Shown here piece after piece: positions 7-18,860 of a stretch of 32,000 nt of DNA; position 1 is the first letter of the stretch; every line of letters begins with the position of its first letter. Source of the DNA: Erysipelotrichaceae bacterium (GTDB lineage Bacteria > Bacillota_I > Bacilli_A > Erysipelotrichales > Erysipelotrichaceae); the NCBI GenBank assembly GCA_030604855.1, contig JAUVVC010000002.1, positions 60,001 through 92,000 on the forward strand. Direction: 5' to 3'. Both the position numbers and the translations under genes were made by a program. Under the pieces are notes generated by a model, which had not been told where the DNA came from, did not search any database, and saw only the letters and a program-made list of their open reading frames with translations.

Positions 7-684
7 ATGATTGAAGTAAAACAATTAAGTTACGCATATTCGAAGGATCTGGTGCTTAAAGATGTCAGTTTCAACATTCAAGCCAATGAAATCGTTGGTA
101 TTCTTGGTTTGAGTGGAAGTGGTAAGACGACCTTACTCAAGATTCTAAGTGGTCTGCTCAAGCCCAAACAAGGAAGTTATCTTGTGGAAGGACAATCTGC
201 TTATCTCAAAGGTAAACGCAATCCTGTTTTAAGTCAGGAGTTAGGTGTCGTCTTTCAAGAGTATCAACTCTTCATGCATTTGAGTGTCATCGATAACTTG
301 GTTCTGCCGTATCGCCTGCGTTTCAGCGTGAGCAAAGAAGAGGCGAAAATCAAAGCCTTGGAATTACTCGAACAGTTCGGTTTACTTCAGCAAAAAGATC
401 AATTTCCGAATGAATGTTCAGGGGGTCAGCAACAACGCATTGCGATTGCACGTGCTTTGATTTTGAATCCACGTGTTCTGTTGATTGATGAACCCACCGC
501 TGCCTTGGATTCTGAAAACACACAGAATGTGGCCAATCTACTCAAGTCGCTCAATAAAAAAGGGCTGACCGTGATTGTGATAACCCACGATCTGCCCTTT
601 GCTCAATCGTTATGTCAACGTGTGATTGAACTCAATCAAGGTAAGATGATTAAAGATATGGACGCAAAGGATTACTTTGCTTGA
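7..684 (+). CDS. ABC transporter ATP-binding protein, polar-amino-acid (GlnQ-like) type
   Basis: Walker A GLSGSGKTT, signature CSGGQQQR, Walker B LLIDEPTAALD and H-loop ITHD are all present. The ATG at 7 directly follows the TTG at 4. Partner permease and binding-protein genes presumably lie upstream of the window. Confidence 0.85.
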   Translation: MIEVKQLSYAYSKDLVLKDVSFNIQANEIVGILGLSGSGKTTLLKILSGLLKPKQGSYLVEGQSAYLKGKRNPVLSQELGVVFQEYQLFMHLSVIDNLVLPYRLRFSVSKEEAKIKALELLEQFGLLQQKDQFPNECSGGQQQRIAIARALILNPRVLLIDEPTAALDSENTQNVANLLKSLNKKGLTVIVITHDLPFAQSLCQRVIELNQGKMIKDMDAKDYFA

Positions 685-2531
685 TACGCCTTTAAAGCAT
701 TGAATTGAGCAATCTGGATGCGCTTCTGCGCATCTATTTTTTTGCCTTCATCATCGATGAGAATGGTTGAACCTTCATGATAGCCCGACTTGAACTGCGT
801 CGCATGTGGAAACTGTTCCTGGTTGCCCCAAAGGTAAGGGGTTGGAAGGTAGCCAAAGGCAAATATGTCGTAGAGTCCTTGAGCGGTATAAGGCTCATGA
901 ACCGTTTGGTCGATCGAGTCCAAAATCAATTGCGCTTCCTGTACGAAGTGCTGAGTTTTGGCTTGAATATCGGGTTCATACTGATTTGGATCAATTTGTT
1001 GATTAGCCTTCATTTGACGATATTTTTGTATGGCTGAATGCGTGATTTGAATGCTTTCATGAATGACTTCCGGTGTTGCCAAATAAAGGGCTTCACTGTA
1101 GCTCACCACATGCACAAGCGGAGGACTGAAACTGTCATTTGGTTCAATGTCGTCCATAAGCATGCTTACAACAGCCAGTTGACGTTTCGCTAATTCAACA
1201 TCCGGTGCGAAATAATCCAAACCGGCACGCGGTTGAAGATACATCTTGAAGTCTTCATTAAGCAATGGTTTTATCAATTGAATGATGGCTCTTGCTTTCG
1301 CAAGATCTACAATGCCGGTTGTATAGCGTGGTGTATTCAACATGACCTGAAGGATGAAATCATGAATGCCATGTTTTTTTGCGCTTCGAGCCGCCAACAC
1401 CGCCGATACGATATACGTCACATCATCACTCCCTCTGAAAGCGAAATGATGCGGAATATTGGGTTCAAATGGTTTTTTTGTCTGTGCGATGTATTTCAAG
1501 GTTTCAATGTGTTCTTGAAGATTGGTGAGCAGATCATTGGGACCTCGACCGTCCAATTGGTTGAACCACCAAAAGGAAAGGGCATGCCAAGCGATGTTGA
1601 TGCTGCGCTCATGGATCTTCGCTAACTCAGGGACATTCTTTGTACCGGCGTAGGTTCTTAATAACAGAGGTCGCGATGCCTCATAAAGCTCACGGTATTC
1701 AAGTTCATTTTGAATCGGGACGCCTCCACCATTGCTTAGACCTGTCCAATCTTCATTGAAATTGGACTGTGTCAATTGGGATGAACCGATAGAGACAATA
1801 TCGAGATAGCCAGCGTTGGCTAATTGCTTGCACCAATCTTTGAACAATTCCACCGCTTCTTTACGATTATGTAAATAAGGACCGACATGGACCCGTGTCA
1901 ATGGGAGATTCTGTGTCTTTTGGTGATGTTGGAGTCGATCCACAAGTCGATCTTGGCGGGTTCCAAAACCGTCATAACCCGCTTTTGAAATGGGTCTGAT
2001 GCGAAGATGTTCACCACTTTCAATCAATGCATCTGCGTAACGTTTGAGATCTTCATCATACCGTGAGGATTCAATCAATTGCTTCGGAATCTCATCCTCT
2101 TCCACACCCATTTTAAGCAGACTGTCGCGCGGACTTTCCGAACCGATGAAGCACGTTACCAATGTCTTATGTTCTTCTTCGATCAAGCGACAACTTTCGG
2201 GCAGTCCAGCAAAAAAGAGGTGTTGCAGTGTTCCACCATCAAAACTGAAACAATGTTCGCTCTTCAAGGCATGAACCAGATGACCCATGATCCATTGTGC
2301 GTCTTTGGGATCCAAACGATAGGAGACCCCTAAATGCGTGATCTCATGTTGTTTGATCCAAGCGATGATACGATCTTTTTGAACACTGTGTTCAATCTCG
2401 CGTAGTGCGATGGAAATCGTTTCATCCCCTACTCGAACATCTTGTCCGCAAGCCTCGAGTTGACTTTTGATCGCATTGATGCCCAAGGTATGTGCATCCA
2501 AGGAACTTTTAAGCAAACCGTATCGTTTCAT
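672..2531 (-). CDS. Cobalamin (B12)-binding-domain protein with a large C-terminal catalytic-type domain; function unknown
   Basis: The 619-aa ORF has an N-terminal Rossmann-like B12-binding domain with a DxHxxG motif (SLDAHTLG, nt 2481-2498). This is followed by HLGVSYRL and LFFAGLP elements. The remaining ~470 aa resemble no family I can name with confidence. Its start overlaps the upstream gene's stop by 4 nt (ATGA). Confidence 0.6.
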   Translation of the reverse strand: MKRYGLLKSSLDAHTLGINAIKSQLEACGQDVRVGDETISIALREIEHSVQKDRIIAWIKQHEITHLGVSYRLDPKDAQWIMGHLVHALKSEHCFSFDGGTLQHLFFAGLPESCRLIEEEHKTLVTCFIGSESPRDSLLKMGVEEDEIPKQLIESSRYDEDLKRYADALIESGEHLRIRPISKAGYDGFGTRQDRLVDRLQHHQKTQNLPLTRVHVGPYLHNRKEAVELFKDWCKQLANAGYLDIVSIGSSQLTQSNFNEDWTGLSNGGGVPIQNELEYRELYEASRPLLLRTYAGTKNVPELAKIHERSINIAWHALSFWWFNQLDGRGPNDLLTNLQEHIETLKYIAQTKKPFEPNIPHHFAFRGSDDVTYIVSAVLAARSAKKHGIHDFILQVMLNTPRYTTGIVDLAKARAIIQLIKPLLNEDFKMYLQPRAGLDYFAPDVELAKRQLAVVSMLMDDIEPNDSFSPPLVHVVSYSEALYLATPEVIHESIQITHSAIQKYRQMKANQQIDPNQYEPDIQAKTQHFVQEAQLILDSIDQTVHEPYTAQGLYDIFAFGYLPTPYLWGNQEQFPHATQFKSGYHEGSTILIDDEGKKIDAQKRIQIAQFNALKAYQAK

Positions 2532-3592
2532 CGTGGCCGGTACTGGTCAAAGAATGCGGACACATCATTGCGACCAATCTCACTGAAATCAATGCCGTAC
2601 AGACTGTTGGCGATGTCCAACACCAACTGAAGATATTTGTGCGGTGTCCCCGCAAGTTTTGCCAATTCCAACATGGGCACGATGCCGGTTGGGATGTCTT
2701 CATAAATATAGCGTGTGGTGATGTCGCTGGGAGATCCGATCTCATCGTACTGACTTGTGTTCTGTAAAGCGGAATAGAGATGGATGCCTTCACTTCCATA
2801 GACATCTGTGAGCCAATCTTTGGCATTGGGCATTGGACAGTTGAAGTAGTTCGCTAAAGCGATGCGTTCCTTATCCAATTTCTCAAGGAATTTGGCAATC
2901 ATCGGGGTGATGCCATCTTTGTAGTGTCTGTAATTTTCTTCACACTCGATGCGTGCTAGGTTCATGAGTGCAGGGAAAGGGTGAAAAATCATTCCGATGT
3001 TGGATAAGGAGGTATATAGAATGGACTCTTCCATCTTAATCATGGAGAACGAGTGAATCAATTCATCATAAATAGTTTTGGAGTGCTTTGGATTCAACGC
3101 AGCCACATGCAGCTTCTTCTTACGTGAGAAGATCTGACTGATGCCTGGGCGGATCTTACGAGATGTCAAGACGAAGGTATCGGTCTCTCCAATGGGCAAG
3201 TCCAAATCGCAACCTGCATCCTTTAAATACTTGTCAAACATGAAGGCACCTAAGGTGCGCCCTGGGTTGATGATGATCTTGTGATGTGCTTTCAAGTATG
3301 GTGCCATTTGGTTGGCGATGTCTTGGTGGGCATGCGCAGGGATGCAGACCATGATGATTTCAGATCTATCCAAGGTCTCTTTTAAGTTTGAACTTGCTCT
3401 GATTCCTTCGACCATGGTGTTGATCATGCCTTGAAGCTCGATGCCTCCATACGCATTGATCTGATCGATGACCATCTTGGTTCGATTATAAAGAACGGTA
3501 GGATTACCCAGATACTGTAAATAGGCGGCTAAAGCTTGGCCACCATGTCCAGCTCCGATAACACAATAGTTTTTTGTGACACGTGTTGTCAT
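2528..3592 (-). CDS. NAD(P)-dependent opine dehydrogenase (octopine/nopaline dehydrogenase family)
   Basis: 354 aa with N-terminal dinucleotide fold VIGAGHGGQALAAYL. Family-typical blocks are IINPGRTLGAF, IGETDTF, YTSLSNIGMIFHPFPALMNLARIE, GITP and TRYIYEDIPTGIVP. Size and block order match what I recall of Arthrobacter-type opine dehydrogenases. RBS AAGGAG lies upstream. Confidence 0.8.
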   Translation of the reverse strand: MTTRVTKNYCVIGAGHGGQALAAYLQYLGNPTVLYNRTKMVIDQINAYGGIELQGMINTMVEGIRASSNLKETLDRSEIIMVCIPAHAHQDIANQMAPYLKAHHKIIINPGRTLGAFMFDKYLKDAGCDLDLPIGETDTFVLTSRKIRPGISQIFSRKKKLHVAALNPKHSKTIYDELIHSFSMIKMEESILYTSLSNIGMIFHPFPALMNLARIECEENYRHYKDGITPMIAKFLEKLDKERIALANYFNCPMPNAKDWLTDVYGSEGIHLYSALQNTSQYDEIGSPSDITTRYIYEDIPTGIVPMLELAKLAGTPHKYLQLVLDIANSLYGIDFSEIGRNDVSAFFDQYRPR

Positions 3593-3637
3593 AGTTTCTC
3601 CTTATTATTGTTTGAATAGACTTCTAAGCATGGCCTT

Positions 3638-3807: not shown

Positions 3808-5168
<1,361 letters not shown>

Positions 5169-5169
<1 letters not shown>

Positions 5170-6239
5170 TGGCTCAAGTCTATAATTTTTCGGCCGGACC
5201 AGCGATGCTGGATCCTGGTGTCATGCGTCAGATCCAAGCCGAACTTTTAGATTATCAGAACACGGGCATGTCCATCATGGAGATGAGTCATCGCTCAGCT
5301 CTGTTTGAAGCACTGGTGCAAGATGCGAAAGCCAATCTACGGGTATTGATGAATATTCCTGAGCATTATGAAATTCTCTTTCTACAAGGCGGAGCCAGTC
5401 TTCAATTTTCAATGATTCCCATGAATCTGATGCTTGATCATCGACGTGCTGCCTATCTCAACAGCGGGGTATGGAGTCAAAAAGCGGTAGATGAGGCGAA
5501 ACGTCATGGGGAAGTGATCATCGTAGGGGACAGTGCGGATCAAAAGTATAAATGTTTACCGATTTGTGATGCGCTACCCAGTGCGATCGATTATGCGTAT
5601 TATGTCTCAAACAATACGATCTATGGAACGCAATTCAAAACGATCCCCATGGATCATCCTGTTTTGATTGCGGATATGAGTTCGGATATCTTATCCAAAC
5701 CCATCGATGTATCCAAGCATGCTTTGATTTTTGCAGGTGCACAGAAAAATCTGGGCATCGCAGGGGTGACTCTAGTGATCATCCGGAAAGATCTGATTCG
5801 TGAAGACTTGAGTGTGGATACGATGTTACGTTATGCGACGCACCAGAAAGCGGACTCCCTGTACAACACACCGGCTAGCTTCAGTCTGTATGTTTTGAAG
5901 AAAGTAACGGATTGGTTGCTTGAAGTTGGAATGGATGCGATGACGAAGCGTAATGAACTAAAAGCGAACATGCTTTACACGGCCATCGATCAAAGTGAGC
6001 TCTTTATGAATGAAATCAAGAAAGAAGATCGTTCTTGGATGAATGTGGTTTTCACCACAAAAGATCCTCAATTGGATGAGGCTTTCATAAGTTTTGCCAA
6101 AAGCTATGCTTGTGTGAACATCAAAGGGTATCGAAGTGTGGGGGGCATGCGTGCCAGTTTGTACAATGCCATGCCGATCGAAGGGGTACAACGGCTTATA
6201 GAGGCGATGGAAGCCTTTGAAAGACAGGTGAAGCCATGA
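5169..6239 (+). CDS. serC: Phosphoserine aminotransferase
   Basis: 356 aa with N-terminus YNFSAGPAML and class-V aminotransferase blocks including GAQKNLG. Its start overlaps the gdhA stop by 1 nt (TGATG). Confidence 0.93.
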
Positions 6240-7408
6240 GAATCAAGGTCATCAATTCAATCGCTGAAGAAGGTTTGAAACGTTTGGGTCCAAGTTATGC
6301 GATCGTGAATGAGTCAGCGGATGCCTGGATCGTTCGTTCGGCAAATCTATTGACGGTGGAATTTGATCCTCAGCTCAAAGCCATCGCACGCTCCGGTGTC
6401 GGGGTGAATACGATTCCATTGGAGCGCTGTGCGGAGCGGGGCATTGTTGTGTTCAATACGCCGGGTGCCAATGCCAATGCGGTCAAGGAATTAGTTGTGG
6501 CGGGTTTATATTTGGCGTCGCGTGACATCATCGGTGCGACTGCTTGGGTCAAGACATTACCAACGGATGAGACCATCGTAAAGACGGTTGAACAAGAAAA
6601 GGCACGCTTTCAAGGTCAGGAGATCAAAGGCAAGACCTTAGGCGTCGTTGGCTTGGGTGCGGTGGGTGTGCTTGTGGCCAATGTGGCGCTTCAGTTGGGA
6701 ATGCATGTTCTCGGTTACGATCCGTACATCTCTATCACCAATGCTTGGGGTTTGTCCTCTAAAGTCAAACGAGCCAACAGTTATGAAGAGGTGTATCGTC
6801 AGTCGGATTATCTAAGTCTCCATGTGCCGCTTGTGGATGCGACACATCATTTGATCAATAAAGATCGTATCAAACAAATGAAAAAAGGCATTCGGATTTT
6901 AAATTTCGCTCGTGCGGAGTTGGTGGATGATCATGCCATCTTGGAAGCTTTGAAGAGTCATAAAATCAATACATATGTCACAGACTTCCCCAATGTGATG
7001 ACGCATCAAATGCCGAATTGCATCGAAATACCCCATTTAGGCGCATCTACCGTGGAATCTGAAGTGAATTGTGCCATCCTGGCTGTGGACACCTTGAAAG
7101 AGTATTTCGAGACAGGTTCGATCAAGAACAGTGTCAACTATCCAGATATGGAATGTGGCCCCGTCTTGTATCCAGCCCGTGTTCTCTTACTTCATGCGAA
7201 CGTCGTGAACATGGTGGGTCAGATCACCAGCATCTTGGGACATTATGGCATCAACATCGAAGCGATGCAGAATCAATCTCGCAAAGCTTGGGCGTATACC
7301 TGTCTGGATGTGGATCGTAAATTGGAAGAAAATGTCATCAAAGCTTTATCAGAAATCGAACATGTCGTTCGTGTACGGGTGATCCATGGTCCGGATCAAG
7401 GCGTTTAA
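6236..7408 (+). CDS. serA: D-3-phosphoglycerate dehydrogenase (2-hydroxyacid dehydrogenase with C-terminal ACT-like domain)
   Basis: 390 aa with the D-isomer 2-hydroxyacid dehydrogenase NAD fold GVVGLGAVG, the HLGAST catalytic block and a C-terminal regulatory-type domain. An ATGA overlap links it to serC. Confidence 0.9.
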   Translation: MRIKVINSIAEEGLKRLGPSYAIVNESADAWIVRSANLLTVEFDPQLKAIARSGVGVNTIPLERCAERGIVVFNTPGANANAVKELVVAGLYLASRDIIGATAWVKTLPTDETIVKTVEQEKARFQGQEIKGKTLGVVGLGAVGVLVANVALQLGMHVLGYDPYISITNAWGLSSKVKRANSYEEVYRQSDYLSLHVPLVDATHHLINKDRIKQMKKGIRILNFARAELVDDHAILEALKSHKINTYVTDFPNVMTHQMPNCIEIPHLGASTVESEVNCAILAVDTLKEYFETGSIKNSVNYPDMECGPVLYPARVLLLHANVVNMVGQITSILGHYGINIEAMQNQSRKAWAYTCLDVDRKLEENVIKALSEIEHVVRVRVIHGPDQGV

Positions 7409-8597
7409 GCCCTACATTTTAAAAGAGAACCAAGCAGACATCGTAAGTCTACCCTACGATGTCTTTAGTCATGCGTCCGCAGTAAAAGAGATCGAAGGCA
7501 AGCCGAATCATTTTTTGCGTATTGATAAACCTGAAGTCAATGGGATGTCTTCCGTACAATCAAACATGAAACTTGTATTTCGACTTTTCAAGCGGAATCT
7601 CAAGTTGCATTATCACAAGGAGATCGTTCCAAGTTTATATCGATATGATCTGATATCCGAAACGCACCATCAAAAAGGCTTGGTGGCTTTGTGCTCATTG
7701 GATGATTTGCTTGAACGTCACATCCGTGATCATGAGGAGACGCGTAAAGACAAAGAGTTGGAACGGACGCGACATATCAAGATGCTTAATGCTCAGACGG
7801 GACCGATTTATCTTTTCCATTATGGACAAGCGGAGCTTCGCAATTTGATCGAATCATCAGACAATGCCTTGATTTTGGAGTTTAAGCAAAACGACATCAC
7901 TCATCGCATCTTTGCATTGCAAGATCCTGATCGTGTTGAAGCAATCCTTCATGCAATGGCAGAAGTGGATCATCTTTATGTGGCCGATGGTCATCATCGT
8001 ATGAATGCAGCCCGTAATGTCTATCTTGAACGTTTGAAAATGAAGCAGGACATTGGAAACAGAGATTATTTCTTATCCGTCATCTTCCCAGCTGAGGAGT
8101 TGCGAATTTTTGATTACAATCGTGTGGTTAAAGATCTGAATGGTTTGAGTGCCGAAGCGTTCATTCGTCAAATGGATCAAGTGTGCACGAAGCTTGAGAC
8201 TTCAGGCAGGATGCTTAAACCTGAAGCCAAACAAGAGTTCACTCTGTATCTCGATGGATCTTGGTATCGTTATCGATTCAATGTGAATCAATTGAAAAAC
8301 CTGAGACCAGATGAACATCTGGATGTGGCTTTACTTCAAAGTGTCATATTGAACCCTATTCTTGGCATCAAACAACCCCGTGTCGATGTTCGTATTGATT
8401 TCATAGGAGGTGTATTTGGACTGGAAGCCATTGTGGAGCGCTGTGAAAGTGACATGCGCGTGGGCTTCGCTTTGTATCCGACTTCCATCGAAGATTTGAT
8501 GCGTTTGTCGGACTTAGGCATGAAGATGCCTCCTAAATCGACGTGGTTTGAACCGAAGCTATTGTCGGGCATTTGGCTGTGTGATTTGGATGAGTGA
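7386..8597 (+). CDS. DUF1015 family protein (uncharacterised, ser-operon associated)
   Basis: 403 aa with N-terminal IKAFKPY and SLPYDV blocks and an ADGHHR motif, which I recognise as typical of DUF1015. It overlaps the serA 3' end by 23 nt. Confidence 0.75.
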   Translation: MVRIKAFKPYILKENQADIVSLPYDVFSHASAVKEIEGKPNHFLRIDKPEVNGMSSVQSNMKLVFRLFKRNLKLHYHKEIVPSLYRYDLISETHHQKGLVALCSLDDLLERHIRDHEETRKDKELERTRHIKMLNAQTGPIYLFHYGQAELRNLIESSDNALILEFKQNDITHRIFALQDPDRVEAILHAMAEVDHLYVADGHHRMNAARNVYLERLKMKQDIGNRDYFLSVIFPAEELRIFDYNRVVKDLNGLSAEAFIRQMDQVCTKLETSGRMLKPEAKQEFTLYLDGSWYRYRFNVNQLKNLRPDEHLDVALLQSVILNPILGIKQPRVDVRIDFIGGVFGLEAIVERCESDMRVGFALYPTSIEDLMRLSDLGMKMPPKSTWFEPKLLSGIWLCDLDE

Positions 8598-8603
8598 GGA
8601 AAT

Positions 8604-9686
8604 ATGAGTTTGACAACAAGAACATTACCGGGATATACGATTCAAAGCGAAGATCTTAATGTGTTTGATGCATGGTTCACTTCAGATGTGAAGGTTGCCG
8701 TTATCGGAGGGCATACAGCTTTAGCCTTGACTAAGGAATACCTATCAGAGCAATTAAGAGCACATGGTGTCTCTTTCTTTTGGACGGGAGGAGAATGCAA
8801 TCAAAGCAATCATGATCGTTTATTAAAAGAGAAAATGGTTCATGAATACGATTGGATCATTGGTGTTGGCGGTGGTCGTGCTTTGGATCTGGCAAAATGG
8901 GTTGCGGATACAGTTCAAAAACCGATTCTAACGATACCCACCATTGCGTCAACTTGCGCGGCCTGCTCAGCTGTTTCGGTTGTTTATGATGAAAACCATC
9001 AATTCTTACGAATCCAAGAACTTTATAAAGCTCCCGAGCATGTCATCTTGTTGCCGACTATTTTAGTGGAGGCACCTGCTTCCTTTTTGCATGCGGGGAT
9101 TGGGGACGCCATCAGCAAACCCATGGAGATCAATTTCTCAGGTAAGCATATGCCGTGGTCATTTCATAATCATTTGGGAAAATCGATTGCGGAGAGCGCA
9201 TTGAAGATATTGACTGAACAGGGAGAAATGGCATATCAAGCGAACTTGAGTCAAAGCATGAACACTTCGTTCATCAATGTGGTTTCAGCCATCATCATGG
9301 GTATTGGTTATGCCTCGATTCTTGTAGAGGAAGACTATAACAGCGCATTGGCACATGCGTTGTACAACGCATTCATGCGTATGGATGCAGTAAAGAAACA
9401 GCCTCACGGCCTTGTAGTTGCTTATGGTATCTTGGTTCAGTGTCTTGTGGATGAGGATCAAACTTCTTTTAGTGAATTGTATGCTTTTTATCAAAAACTT
9501 GGATTACCGAAATCGCTTAGAACCATTGGCACGCAACTTGACCATAAGGATTTACCAAGTGTGATTGATGCGGCGCTTAAAATGCCGGATTGTCGGTTTG
9601 TATCAAAACAACTGAATGTGACTAAGGTGTTTGAGGCAATGCATACCTTGGAGTTACTGGAATCATCATCAAAAGAAATTGATTAA
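8604..9686 (+). CDS. Iron-containing alcohol dehydrogenase family protein, glycerol-dehydrogenase-like
   Basis: 360 aa with GVGGGRALDLAKWVA, TIPTIASTCAACSA and putative metal ligands in GIGDAISKP, HALYN and HGLVVAYG. A GAGGAAA RBS lies 6 nt after the DUF1015 stop. Confidence 0.75.
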   Translation: MSLTTRTLPGYTIQSEDLNVFDAWFTSDVKVAVIGGHTALALTKEYLSEQLRAHGVSFFWTGGECNQSNHDRLLKEKMVHEYDWIIGVGGGRALDLAKWVADTVQKPILTIPTIASTCAACSAVSVVYDENHQFLRIQELYKAPEHVILLPTILVEAPASFLHAGIGDAISKPMEINFSGKHMPWSFHNHLGKSIAESALKILTEQGEMAYQANLSQSMNTSFINVVSAIIMGIGYASILVEEDYNSALAHALYNAFMRMDAVKKQPHGLVVAYGILVQCLVDEDQTSFSELYAFYQKLGLPKSLRTIGTQLDHKDLPSVIDAALKMPDCRFVSKQLNVTKVFEAMHTLELLESSSKEID

Positions 9687-18227: not shown

Positions 18228-18860
18228 ATGCCACTATTTGAAGAGTTTAATCGTGCATTTCAAGCTTTGGATCAAGAACACTGCATCCAATTGACGTATG
18301 ATGCTTTATCCAATGAAATCATCAGCGTTGAAGACTTATATGAGAATGTATTACGTAAAGCGTTATCGGTACTGACGGATAAAGAGACGGATCCCACTCA
18401 CAAGATCTGGAGAGAGCATGTTCAATCGTCCATAGTTCGAACCATCATCGAAATGACCTATCCTTTTGTCATAAAACAACGCATTGAGATTTTAAATAAA
18501 AAAGCTGCTGTCGTATGTCCGGATGGTGAACAACATGAATTGGGTGCGCGCATGGTCAGTGACTATCTGAGGATGCTCGGGTATGAGACCTATTTTGTAG
18601 GACGAGATACACCCCGTTTGGAGTTTTTGGACATGATCAAGACCTTGAACTTGGATGTCGTGGCCATCAGTGTCACCAATTACTACAATCTATCCAAAGC
18701 GCTTCAAACCGTTGTGGATGTCAAAGAGCATTTTCCGGAAGTGACTTTGGTTGCGGGTGGACGCGGCTTGGATGCGAATGCGGAAGTCTTGGTTAAGCAC
18801 GATGTCTTGATCACCCATGATCTTAATGATTTGAAGCGTATTTTAGGAGGAAACGCATGA
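18228..18860 (+). CDS. Stand-alone cobalamin-binding-domain protein (helical cap plus Rossmann B12 domain, CarH-like, no DNA-binding domain)
   Basis: 210 aa with no signal peptide or TM helix. An N-terminal helical region contains an REH dyad. The ExHxxG variant of the lower-ligand motif (GEQHELG, nt 18528-18545) is followed by VVAISV and LVAGGRG blocks. Its stop overlaps the next gene's start (ATGA). Confidence 0.7.
   Translation: MPLFEEFNRAFQALDQEHCIQLTYDALSNEIISVEDLYENVLRKALSVLTDKETDPTHKIWREHVQSSIVRTIIEMTYPFVIKQRIEILNKKAAVVCPDGEQHELGARMVSDYLRMLGYETYFVGRDTPRLEFLDMIKTLNLDVVAISVTNYYNLSKALQTVVDVKEHFPEVTLVAGGRGLDANAEVLVKHDVLITHDLNDLKRILGGNA

What the first reader, a model, noticed from the sequence alone, without database searches (positions are those of the whole stretch)
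672..3592. Two-gene operon: opine dehydrogenase plus an uncharacterised 619-aa cobalamin-domain enzyme
Seen: a well-conserved opine (octopine/nopaline-type) dehydrogenase has its stop codon overlapping (ATGA) the start of a 619-aa ORF. That ORF has an N-terminal ~130 aa that reads as a B12-binding Rossmann domain, with a canonical DxHxxG motif (DAHTLG) and the expected downstream strand motifs. Its remaining ~470 aa have a repetitive strand/helix character but match no B12 enzyme I can name. It is not the layout I know for MetH, glutamate or methylmalonyl-CoA mutase, the aminomutases or the radical-SAM B12 families. Established: opine dehydrogenases reductively condense an amino acid with a 2-oxo acid, and they occur in opine catabolism and in staphylopine-type metallophore pathways. 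Inference: the pair may make or degrade an N-carboxyalkyl amino acid, with a cobalamin-dependent rearrangement or methyl-transfer step. The convergent neighbour is a polar-amino-acid ABC ATPase.
Basis: partly seen in the sequence, partly recalled or inferred. Interest (0 to 1): 0.6.

Follow-up and report, generated by a model that had tools for sequence, protein, structure and literature searches.

The report
Orphan B12 mutase with opine dehydrogenase
Two overlapping genes encode an opine dehydrogenase built for acidic amino acids and a one-piece relative of the vitamin-B12 radical enzyme glutamate mutase with a changed substrate pocket; the pair is widespread in anaerobic bacteria, was flagged in 2009, and its reaction has still not been determined.

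Summary
Observation confirmed. The 619-aa protein folds (pLDDT 91-94) as an N-terminal cobalamin Rossmann domain fused to a TIM barrel. Its best structural match is glutamate mutase E (VIA Z 26.9, 14% identity), with the aminomutases nearly tied. It keeps the DxHxxG histidine and the Glu that activates the Co-C bond (E480 = GlmE E330), but apparently not the glutamate arginine claw or the aminomutase PLP lysine. So it works like an adenosylcobalamin mutase with another substrate, not a methyltransferase. The dehydrogenase carries the published Arg/Gly signature for Asp/Glu and NADPH; so do all mutase-linked copies checked (84/84, 85/85) and none of 6 unlinked ones. An opine dehydrogenase lies next to or near the mutase in 76 of 85 informative loci, often with an amide ligase. 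This genome imports and adenosylates B12 and has a separate canonical glutamate mutase. Best reading: the pair makes a branched, polyacidic N-carboxyethyl amino acid by radical rearrangement; substrate and step order are inferred. Zhang et al. 2009 already predicted the family and its pairing, and this scan found it before on many other genomes. No biochemical study was found.

The parts
3598..3603 (-). Shine-Dalgarno (AAGGAG) of the opine dehydrogenase
   Evidence: sequence
2528..3592 (-). NAD(P)H opine dehydrogenase, 354 aa, acidic-amino-acid subtype; catalytic H204/D299; N36-R37 NADPH signature
   Evidence: PF02317 1.8e-38; 1BG6 4e-58; PMC10787698
3257..3259 (-). ODH Arg112 (= ArODH Ala111), Asp/Glu specificity position
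   Evidence: alignment; 84/84 linked ODHs
2993..2995 (-). ODH Gly200 (= ArODH Asn198), partner specificity position
   Evidence: alignment; 85/85 linked ODHs
2528..2531 (-). ATGA stop/start overlap (translational coupling inferred)
672..2531 (-). 619-aa single-chain putative adenosylcobalamin mutase (Rossmann domain + TIM barrel + helical tail)
   Evidence: AF2 models; fold searches; hhalign
2112..2531 (-). cobalamin-binding Rossmann domain, residues about 1-140
2481..2498 (-). DxHxxG loop (D12-H14-G17), predicted base-off/His-on cobalt ligand
   Evidence: invariant in 61/61
1002..1964 (-). GlmE-like (beta/alpha)8 barrel, residues about 190-510, with conserved R213, H215, Q255, R292, Y294, E356, R435, H474
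1092..1094 (-). Glu480, equivalent of GlmE Glu330 (adenosyl-ribose ligand)
   Evidence: same match in 8 of 10 runs, posterior 0.63-0.82; PMC3958899

Best explanation
A two-enzyme biosynthetic module. (1) The dehydrogenase condenses pyruvate with an acidic L-amino acid (Glu, Asp or a homologue) using NADPH, giving an N-(1-carboxyethyl) amino acid, a tricarboxylic opine. This is inferred from specificity residues tested by mutagenesis in related enzymes. (2) The 619-aa protein binds adenosylcobalamin base-off through His14, generates the adenosyl radical with help from Glu480, and rearranges the carbon skeleton of that opine by glutamate-mutase-type chemistry, for example N-carboxyethyl-glutamate to N-carboxyethyl-3-methylaspartate. 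Fold and cofactor residues are shown by computation; the substrate and the order of steps are inferred. (3) In many organisms an ATP-grasp ligase or a Cys1-less asparagine-synthetase homologue then activates one carboxylate, onto an amino sugar in capsule loci or onto another amine elsewhere. Here the pair stands alone; a candidate ligase lies on another contig. Odds that it is an AdoCbl radical isomerase working in series with the ODH on an acidic compound, in any order: about 0.75. Odds for this order: as scored.
For: Fold: Foldseek top hit GlmE 1CB7_B E 2.7e-11, then 5,6-LAM, 4,5-OAM and the acyl-CoA mutases; VIA Z 26.9, rmsd 3.4, 379 aligned, against about 14 for methionine synthase barrels. 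Profile match to GlmE prob 94%, E 8.5e-8. A 40%-identical-stretch relative passes the PF06368 cut-off, and three relatives are fused to the GlmL reactivator. A cobalamin adenosyltransferase directly follows the gene in L018. The genome has PduO behind a cobalamin riboswitch. Pocket: GlmE R66/R100/R149 map to H215/Q255/Y294, while invariant R213 and R292 lie two residues earlier on the same strands and R435 is added, which suggests an anionic substrate that sits deeper. ODH signature 84/84 and 85/85 against 0/6 controls. Pairing in 76/85 loci, 5/5 further genomes and in 30%-identity relatives. Among 48 genomes of the family, ODH and mutase occur in the same three. Ligases in 29 loci, DegT in 8. 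An opine on 4-amino-4,6-dideoxyglucose is known from Providencia O35 (PMC10609480).
Against: No binding or activity data exist. The claw mapping rests on profile alignment at 14% identity: recovered in only 5 of 10 runs in full, posterior 0.3-0.7; no residue-level superposition was available. GlmE itself uses three arginines for two carboxylates, so three arginines do not prove a tricarboxylate. 5,6-LAM scores within 1 Z unit of GlmE (25.9), so the fold does not separate carbon shift from amine shift. Related ODHs turn over Asp slowly (kcat 0.1-1.6 per s against 861 for ArODH on Phe), which fits the mutase acting first. Nine of 85 loci lack an ODH nearby.
Confidence: 0.4

Rival explanations
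1. Mutase first: the B12 enzyme rearranges a free acidic amino acid other than, or longer than, glutamate (for example 2-aminoadipate to 3-methylglutamate), and the ODH caps the branched product with pyruvate and pulls the equilibrium.
For: Same fold, cofactor and pairing evidence. Characterised acidic-type ODHs are poor on Asp and accept longer acids such as homocysteate and 2-aminopimelate. A deeper pocket also fits a longer chain.
Against: The residues that hold a free alpha-amino acid in GlmE (R66, R149, E171) do not map onto like residues. Some loci keep the mutase without an ODH, but most need both.
Confidence: 0.27
2. Catabolic route: the pair degrades an environmental opine, or uses opine formation as a pyruvate/NADPH sink, with the mutase feeding the methylaspartate pathway.
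For: The genome ferments glutamate via glmS-glmL-glmE-mal. gdhA is divergent and a polar-amino-acid ABC operon is convergent. Both reactions are reversible.
Against: NADPH signature; frequent ATP-consuming ligases and capsule loci; no conserved importer; complete genomes G088 and G138 have the pair without GlmE. The flanking genes are shared only by close relatives.
Confidence: 0.12
3. Nitrogen shift: a PLP-free aminomutase in which the pyruvate imine, or the opine nitrogen, migrates 1,2 (for example 1-carboxyethyl to 2-carboxyethyl), giving a beta-amino acid that Cys1-less asparagine-synthetase homologues could cyclise as beta-lactam synthetase does.
For: 5,6-LAM and 4,5-OAM are nearly tied with GlmE (Z 25.9, 23.5). 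The PLP lysine position (His+11) is Leu25 in 60/61. Seven of seven readable AsnB-like partners start with Ala or Ser in place of Cys1 and hit beta-lactam synthetase at 6e-20.
Against: No precedent that I know of. The AsnB-like proteins are closer to true AsnB (4e-39). Sequence links (PF06368, GlmL fusions) point to GlmE, not to the aminomutases.
Confidence: 0.1
4. A fused glutamate mutase isoenzyme (Glu to 3-methylaspartate).
For: Closest fold; S+E domain content; GlmL fusions in relatives.
Against: No PF06368 hit, 14% identity, claw apparently replaced, canonical GlmSE present in the same genome and in G472, G486, G526.
Confidence: 0.06
5. A methylcobalamin methyltransferase or corrinoid carrier.
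For: The Rossmann domain scores best against methyltransferase corrinoid proteins and MetH; pterin-binding barrels appear at Z about 14.
Against: Those Z values are about 12 below the mutases; E480 is kept; no cap, SAM, folate or radical-SAM domain; PduO and GlmL linkage in relatives.
Confidence: 0.04

Closest known systems
Predicted B12-dependent family of Zhang et al. 2009 (PMC2667541)
   Same: Distant N-terminal B12-binding domain, always adjacent to a pfam02317 dehydrogenase, D-Ala-D-Ala ligase and asparagine synthase nearby, in Firmicutes, Thermotogae and Chloroflexi; all matched here.
   Different: That paper gave no catalytic fold, reaction class or substrate. Their sequences are in a figure I could not read, so identity of the family rests on the description.
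Glutamate mutase GlmS/GlmE (EC 5.4.99.1; PDB 1CB7, 6H9E; PF02310 + PF06368)
   Same: Rossmann B12 domain with DxHxxG, TIM barrel (Z 26.9), Glu330 equivalent, GlmL linkage in relatives.
   Different: Single chain; 14% identity; R66/R100/R149 and K326 apparently replaced; paired with an opine dehydrogenase instead of methylaspartase.
Lysine 5,6-aminomutase and ornithine 4,5-aminomutase (PDB 1XRS, 8T0V, 3KOW)
   Same: Barrel fold (Z 25.9, 23.5), His-on cobalamin, conserved ribose-binding Glu.
   Different: No PLP lysine 11 residues after the cobalt histidine; B12 domain is N-terminal and in the same chain.
Acidic-amino-acid opine dehydrogenases (mODHs, PMC10787698) and Arthrobacter ArODH (1BG6)
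   Same: PF02317 fold, His/Asp dyad, Arg111/Gly198 and Arg35 signature; two mODH fragments are 64-77% identical to mutase-linked ODHs and 46-48% to the nearest relatives of this one.
   Different: The mODHs were studied without genome context; their natural substrate is unknown. ArODH prefers apolar amino acids and NADH.

Membership tests
AdoCbl-dependent class I mutase superfamily | Rossmann domain with DxHxxG base-off/His-on motif | tested here: met
AdoCbl-dependent class I mutase superfamily | TIM-barrel catalytic domain of the GlmE/MCM/aminomutase type | tested here: met
AdoCbl-dependent class I mutase superfamily | Conserved ribose-binding Glu on strand 8 (GlmE E330, OAM E338) | tested here: met
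   E480; 61/61 and 44/48; same match in 8 of 10 runs
AdoCbl-dependent class I mutase superfamily | AdoCbl binding and substrate-triggered Co-C homolysis | not testable with these tools
   needs purified protein
Glutamate mutase GlmE (PF06368) | Match to PF06368 or sequence similarity to GlmE | tested here: not met
   no hit at E<=1; none in PDB sequence search; 14% structural identity
Glutamate mutase GlmE (PF06368) | Arginine claw R66/R100/R149 with E171, Y177 | tested here: inconclusive
   maps to H215/Q255/Y294 in the best alignments, but posterior only 0.3-0.7; E171 and Y177 not placed reliably
Glutamate mutase GlmE (PF06368) | Operon with methylaspartate ammonia-lyase | tested here: not met
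   no such recurring neighbour among ORF clusters of 107 loci; the genome's mal gene lies with the canonical glmE
PLP/AdoCbl aminomutases | PLP lysine 11 residues after the cobalt histidine (K144/H133; K629/H618) | tested here: not met
   position 25 is Leu in 60/61
PLP/AdoCbl aminomutases | Barrel fold | tested here: met
   Z 25.9 and 23.5
B12 methyltransferases / B12 radical SAM | Cap, SAM or pterin domain, or CxxxCxxC cluster | tested here: not met
   no such Pfam or NCBIfam hit; no motif in the sequence; only C28 and C114 conserved
Opine dehydrogenase (PF02317) | Pfam gathering score, GxGxxG Rossmann motif, His/Asp dyad | tested here: met
   132 bits against cut-off 30; H204, D299
Acidic-amino-acid opine dehydrogenases (mODH type) | Arg at ArODH 111 and Gly at 198 | tested here: met
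   R112, G200
Acidic-amino-acid opine dehydrogenases (mODH type) | Measured activity on Asp/Glu with pyruvate | not testable with these tools
   needs assay
Zhang 2009 predicted B12 family | Distant N-terminal B12 domain and adjacency to pfam02317 | tested here: met
Zhang 2009 predicted B12 family | Sequence identity with the 11 published members | not tested
   alignment is a figure, not held

The most novel reading that the evidence does not exclude
A large, undescribed class of adenosylcobalamin isomerase whose substrate is an opine (or its pyruvate imine), using N-carboxyethylation as the handle for a carbon or nitrogen 1,2-shift without CoA or PLP, and giving an unknown branched polyacid used as glycan decoration, solute or chelator.
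Probability: 0.45. Interest if true: 0.78.

Novelty: new variant of a known kind. Interest (0 to 1): 0.57.

Why it matters
Only about a dozen AdoCbl-dependent reactions are known (own knowledge). This family has thousands of members (2807 clusters at 90% identity) across Bacillota, Bacteroidota, Thermotogota and others, and has been an orphan since 2009. Joining three facts (mutase fold with the Co-C-activating Glu, acidic-type ODH signature, amide-ligase partners) narrows it to a small panel of substrates that can be assayed. It would add a radical reaction, a natural role for the acidic-type opine dehydrogenases, and probably a new surface-glycan substituent in gut and rumen anaerobes.

Tried and rejected
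Single-sequence and close-profile searches of Pfam, NCBIfam and PDB gave nothing for the barrel; hhalign of the close alignment against GlmE failed (prob 0.4) and only the wide alignment worked. No Rfam match in the window at gathering score, none credible at E<=5 around the operon, so no cobalamin or c-di-AMP riboswitch here; promoter and terminator scans were at chance level. c-di-AMP control was seen in 1 of 19 loci scanned. No match in plasmids. Complex prediction of mutase with ODH returned no answer and is not used as evidence. The Ddl-like ligase was not found in five incomplete genomes of close relatives nor in complete G088/G138, so it is not a required part. The ABC transporter and the gdhA-serC-serA block were rejected as parts: shared only among close Erysipelotrichaceae. 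Paper searches found no biochemical study; the library lacks most subscription journals.
Full report
Observation. The two ORFs, the ATGA overlap and the DAHTLG motif are as described. The upstream gene is a clear opine dehydrogenase (PF02317 1.8e-38; 1BG6 4e-58 over its full length). The 619-aa protein has only a sub-threshold B12-binding hit and no other family or PDB sequence match. It has 2807 homologue clusters at 90% identity and 411 at 50%. D12, H14 and G17 are invariant in 61 homologues. The closest named loci are Erysipelotrichaceae MAGs at 89-90% identity; GC content of both genes is close to that of their neighbours.

What the large protein is. AlphaFold2 gives a confident model (pLDDT 90.9 and 94.4): a five-stranded Rossmann domain, an eight-stranded barrel at about 190-510 and a helical tail. 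Foldseek ranks glutamate mutase E first (2.7e-11), then lysine 5,6- and ornithine 4,5-aminomutase, then acyl-CoA mutases. The independent VIA search gives Z 26.9, 25.9 and 23.5 for the first three, 16-18 for acyl-CoA mutases and about 14 for methionine-synthase barrels. A wide family profile matches a GlmE profile at probability 94%. Among distant relatives, P0155 passes the PF06368 cut-off and P0186, P0196 and P0200 are fused to GlmL. The protein is therefore a single-chain S+E member of the AdoCbl mutase superfamily, nearest to GlmE by sequence links.

Active site. With GlmE numbering taken, E330 maps to E480 in 8 of 10 alignment runs; the literature ties this Glu to Co-C homolysis (PMC3958899). 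The glutamate claw R66, R100, R149 (PMC10947579) maps to H215, Q255, Y294, and conserved R213 and R292 lie two residues earlier on the same strands, with R435 on strand 7. This suggests an anionic substrate bound deeper than glutamate, but the mapping has posterior 0.3-0.7 and failed in half of the runs, so it is a lead. The aminomutase PLP lysine (His+11) is Leu25. The same pocket residues persist in relatives at 30% identity, so the family probably shares one chemistry.

The dehydrogenase. Telek et al. 2024 showed by mutagenesis that Arg at ArODH 111 with Gly at 198 switches preference to Asp/Glu, and that Arg35 marks NADPH use; pyruvate is the preferred keto acid (PMC10787698). The window enzyme has R112, G200 and R37. 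All mutase-linked ODHs that could be read have them (84/84, 85/85). None of six unlinked ODHs has the Arg, and the four that cover the second position have Asn (alignments at 20-25% identity). Fragments of the characterised enzymes are 64-77% identical to mutase-linked ODHs, so they probably belong to this clade. Their low turnover on Asp hints that the natural amine is something else.

Context. Of 107 loci, 85 have at least 1.2 kb upstream: 70 have the ODH directly upstream, 6 nearby, 9 none. These loci include many kin and are not independent, but they span Bacillota, Bacteroidales, Cloacimonadota, Aminicenantes and Thermotogota. Two of four distant relatives checked also sit beside an ODH. 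Distribution is patchy: 10 of 201 genomes of the family; in a 48-genome sample ODH and mutase fall in the same three. Partners vary: ATP-grasp ligases in 19 loci, AsnB-like proteins in 11, DegT in 8, PduO in one, a c-di-AMP riboswitch in one. In Bacteroidales and several Firmicutes the pair lies in polysaccharide loci. The recurring theme is ATP-dependent activation of a carboxylate of the product, which points to biosynthesis.

This genome. It is 96% complete, has glmS-glmL-glmE-mal on C10, and PduO with two probable ECF-type transporter genes behind a cobalamin riboswitch on C4. AdoCbl supply is thus plausible and ordinary glutamate mutase activity is already covered. Complete genomes G088 and G138 have the pair and PduO but neither GlmE nor GlmL. 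The window pair has no third gene and no riboswitch. A Ddl-like ligase on C1 is 57-62% identical to the ligase that precedes the ODH in five related loci, and follows an Orr-like racemase; in L010 racemase, ligase, ODH and mutase are contiguous. Only 2 of 201 family genomes have this ligase at E<1e-40, both mutase-positive (one is the query's own source). It is a candidate remote partner, not a required one.

Mechanism. Shown by computation: fold class, cofactor residues, ODH subtype, gene pairing. Inferred: AdoCbl use, radical isomerisation, substrate, order and direction. I put about 0.75 on an AdoCbl isomerase in series with the ODH on an acidic compound, split between opine-as-substrate (0.40), free acid first (0.27) and a nitrogen shift (0.10, partly overlapping); catabolism 0.12, plain glutamate mutase 0.06, methyltransferase 0.04.

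Prior knowledge and verdict. Zhang et al. 2009 predicted this family, its constant ODH neighbour and the ligase and asparagine-synthase partners, without a reaction (PMC2667541). I found no later characterisation in the held library. Earlier agents of this scan reached the same reading on other genomes; that is not independent evidence, and I took the 2009 paper, the acidic-ODH and the c-di-AMP leads from them and checked each. Against characterised systems this is a new variant of AdoCbl mutase; as a gene pair it is a known orphan. Interest 0.57: real, widespread, testable, but already flagged and with the substrate unproven.

Noticed in passing
G000:C1:163-2198 (L166), L010:4695-9833: Orr-like PLP racemase plus Ddl-like ATP-grasp ligase; in L010 the same two genes sit directly upstream of ODH and mutase, so a four-gene pathway may be split in this genome.
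   Followed up: partly
L095, L102, L105, L106, L110, L114, L125: Asparagine-synthetase-like neighbours begin with Ala or Ser where AsnB has catalytic Cys1, so they probably do not use glutamine, like beta-lactam synthetase.
   Followed up: partly
L106:1631-3283, L129:1922-3532 (probably L116, L118): ODH fused to an N-terminal PTS EIIA domain (PF00359), suggesting regulation by phosphorylation.
   Followed up: no
L095:4066-4197: c-di-AMP riboswitch upstream of ODH, AsnB-like gene and mutase.
   Followed up: partly
L161:1286-3154 (P0143): Full-length homologue that has lost H14, E480 and most pocket residues and lies beside a Ddl-like ligase; possibly a non-catalytic paralogue.
   Followed up: no
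L155:1174-4463; L156:3908-7588: Relatives fused to an ATP-grasp domain (with ODH and peptidase C26 neighbours) or to GlmL; 20 of 48 rows of the wide alignment have Cys in place of Asp in the cobalamin loop.
   Followed up: partly
window 18228-18860 +: Stand-alone 210-aa B12-binding protein (PF02310 7e-14, weak CarH match without the DNA-binding part); similar-sized hits lie about 5 kb from PduO in G088 and G138.
   Followed up: partly
G000:C4:12193-12377 and C4:177830-179510: Cobalamin riboswitches upstream of anaerobic ribonucleotide reductase nrdD and of two probable ECF transporter genes plus PduO.
   Followed up: partly
G000:C10:59300-63800: Canonical glmS-glmL-glmE-mal glutamate fermentation operon.
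   Followed up: yes
window 3826-9686 +: Divergent block read as gdhA, serC, serA, DUF1015 and a glycerol-dehydrogenase-like gene; syntenic only in the closest relatives.
   Followed up: partly
window 672-684: Mutase and convergent ABC ATPase overlap by 13 nt at their 3' ends, leaving no room for an intergenic terminator; the arrangement recurs in close relatives.
   Followed up: no
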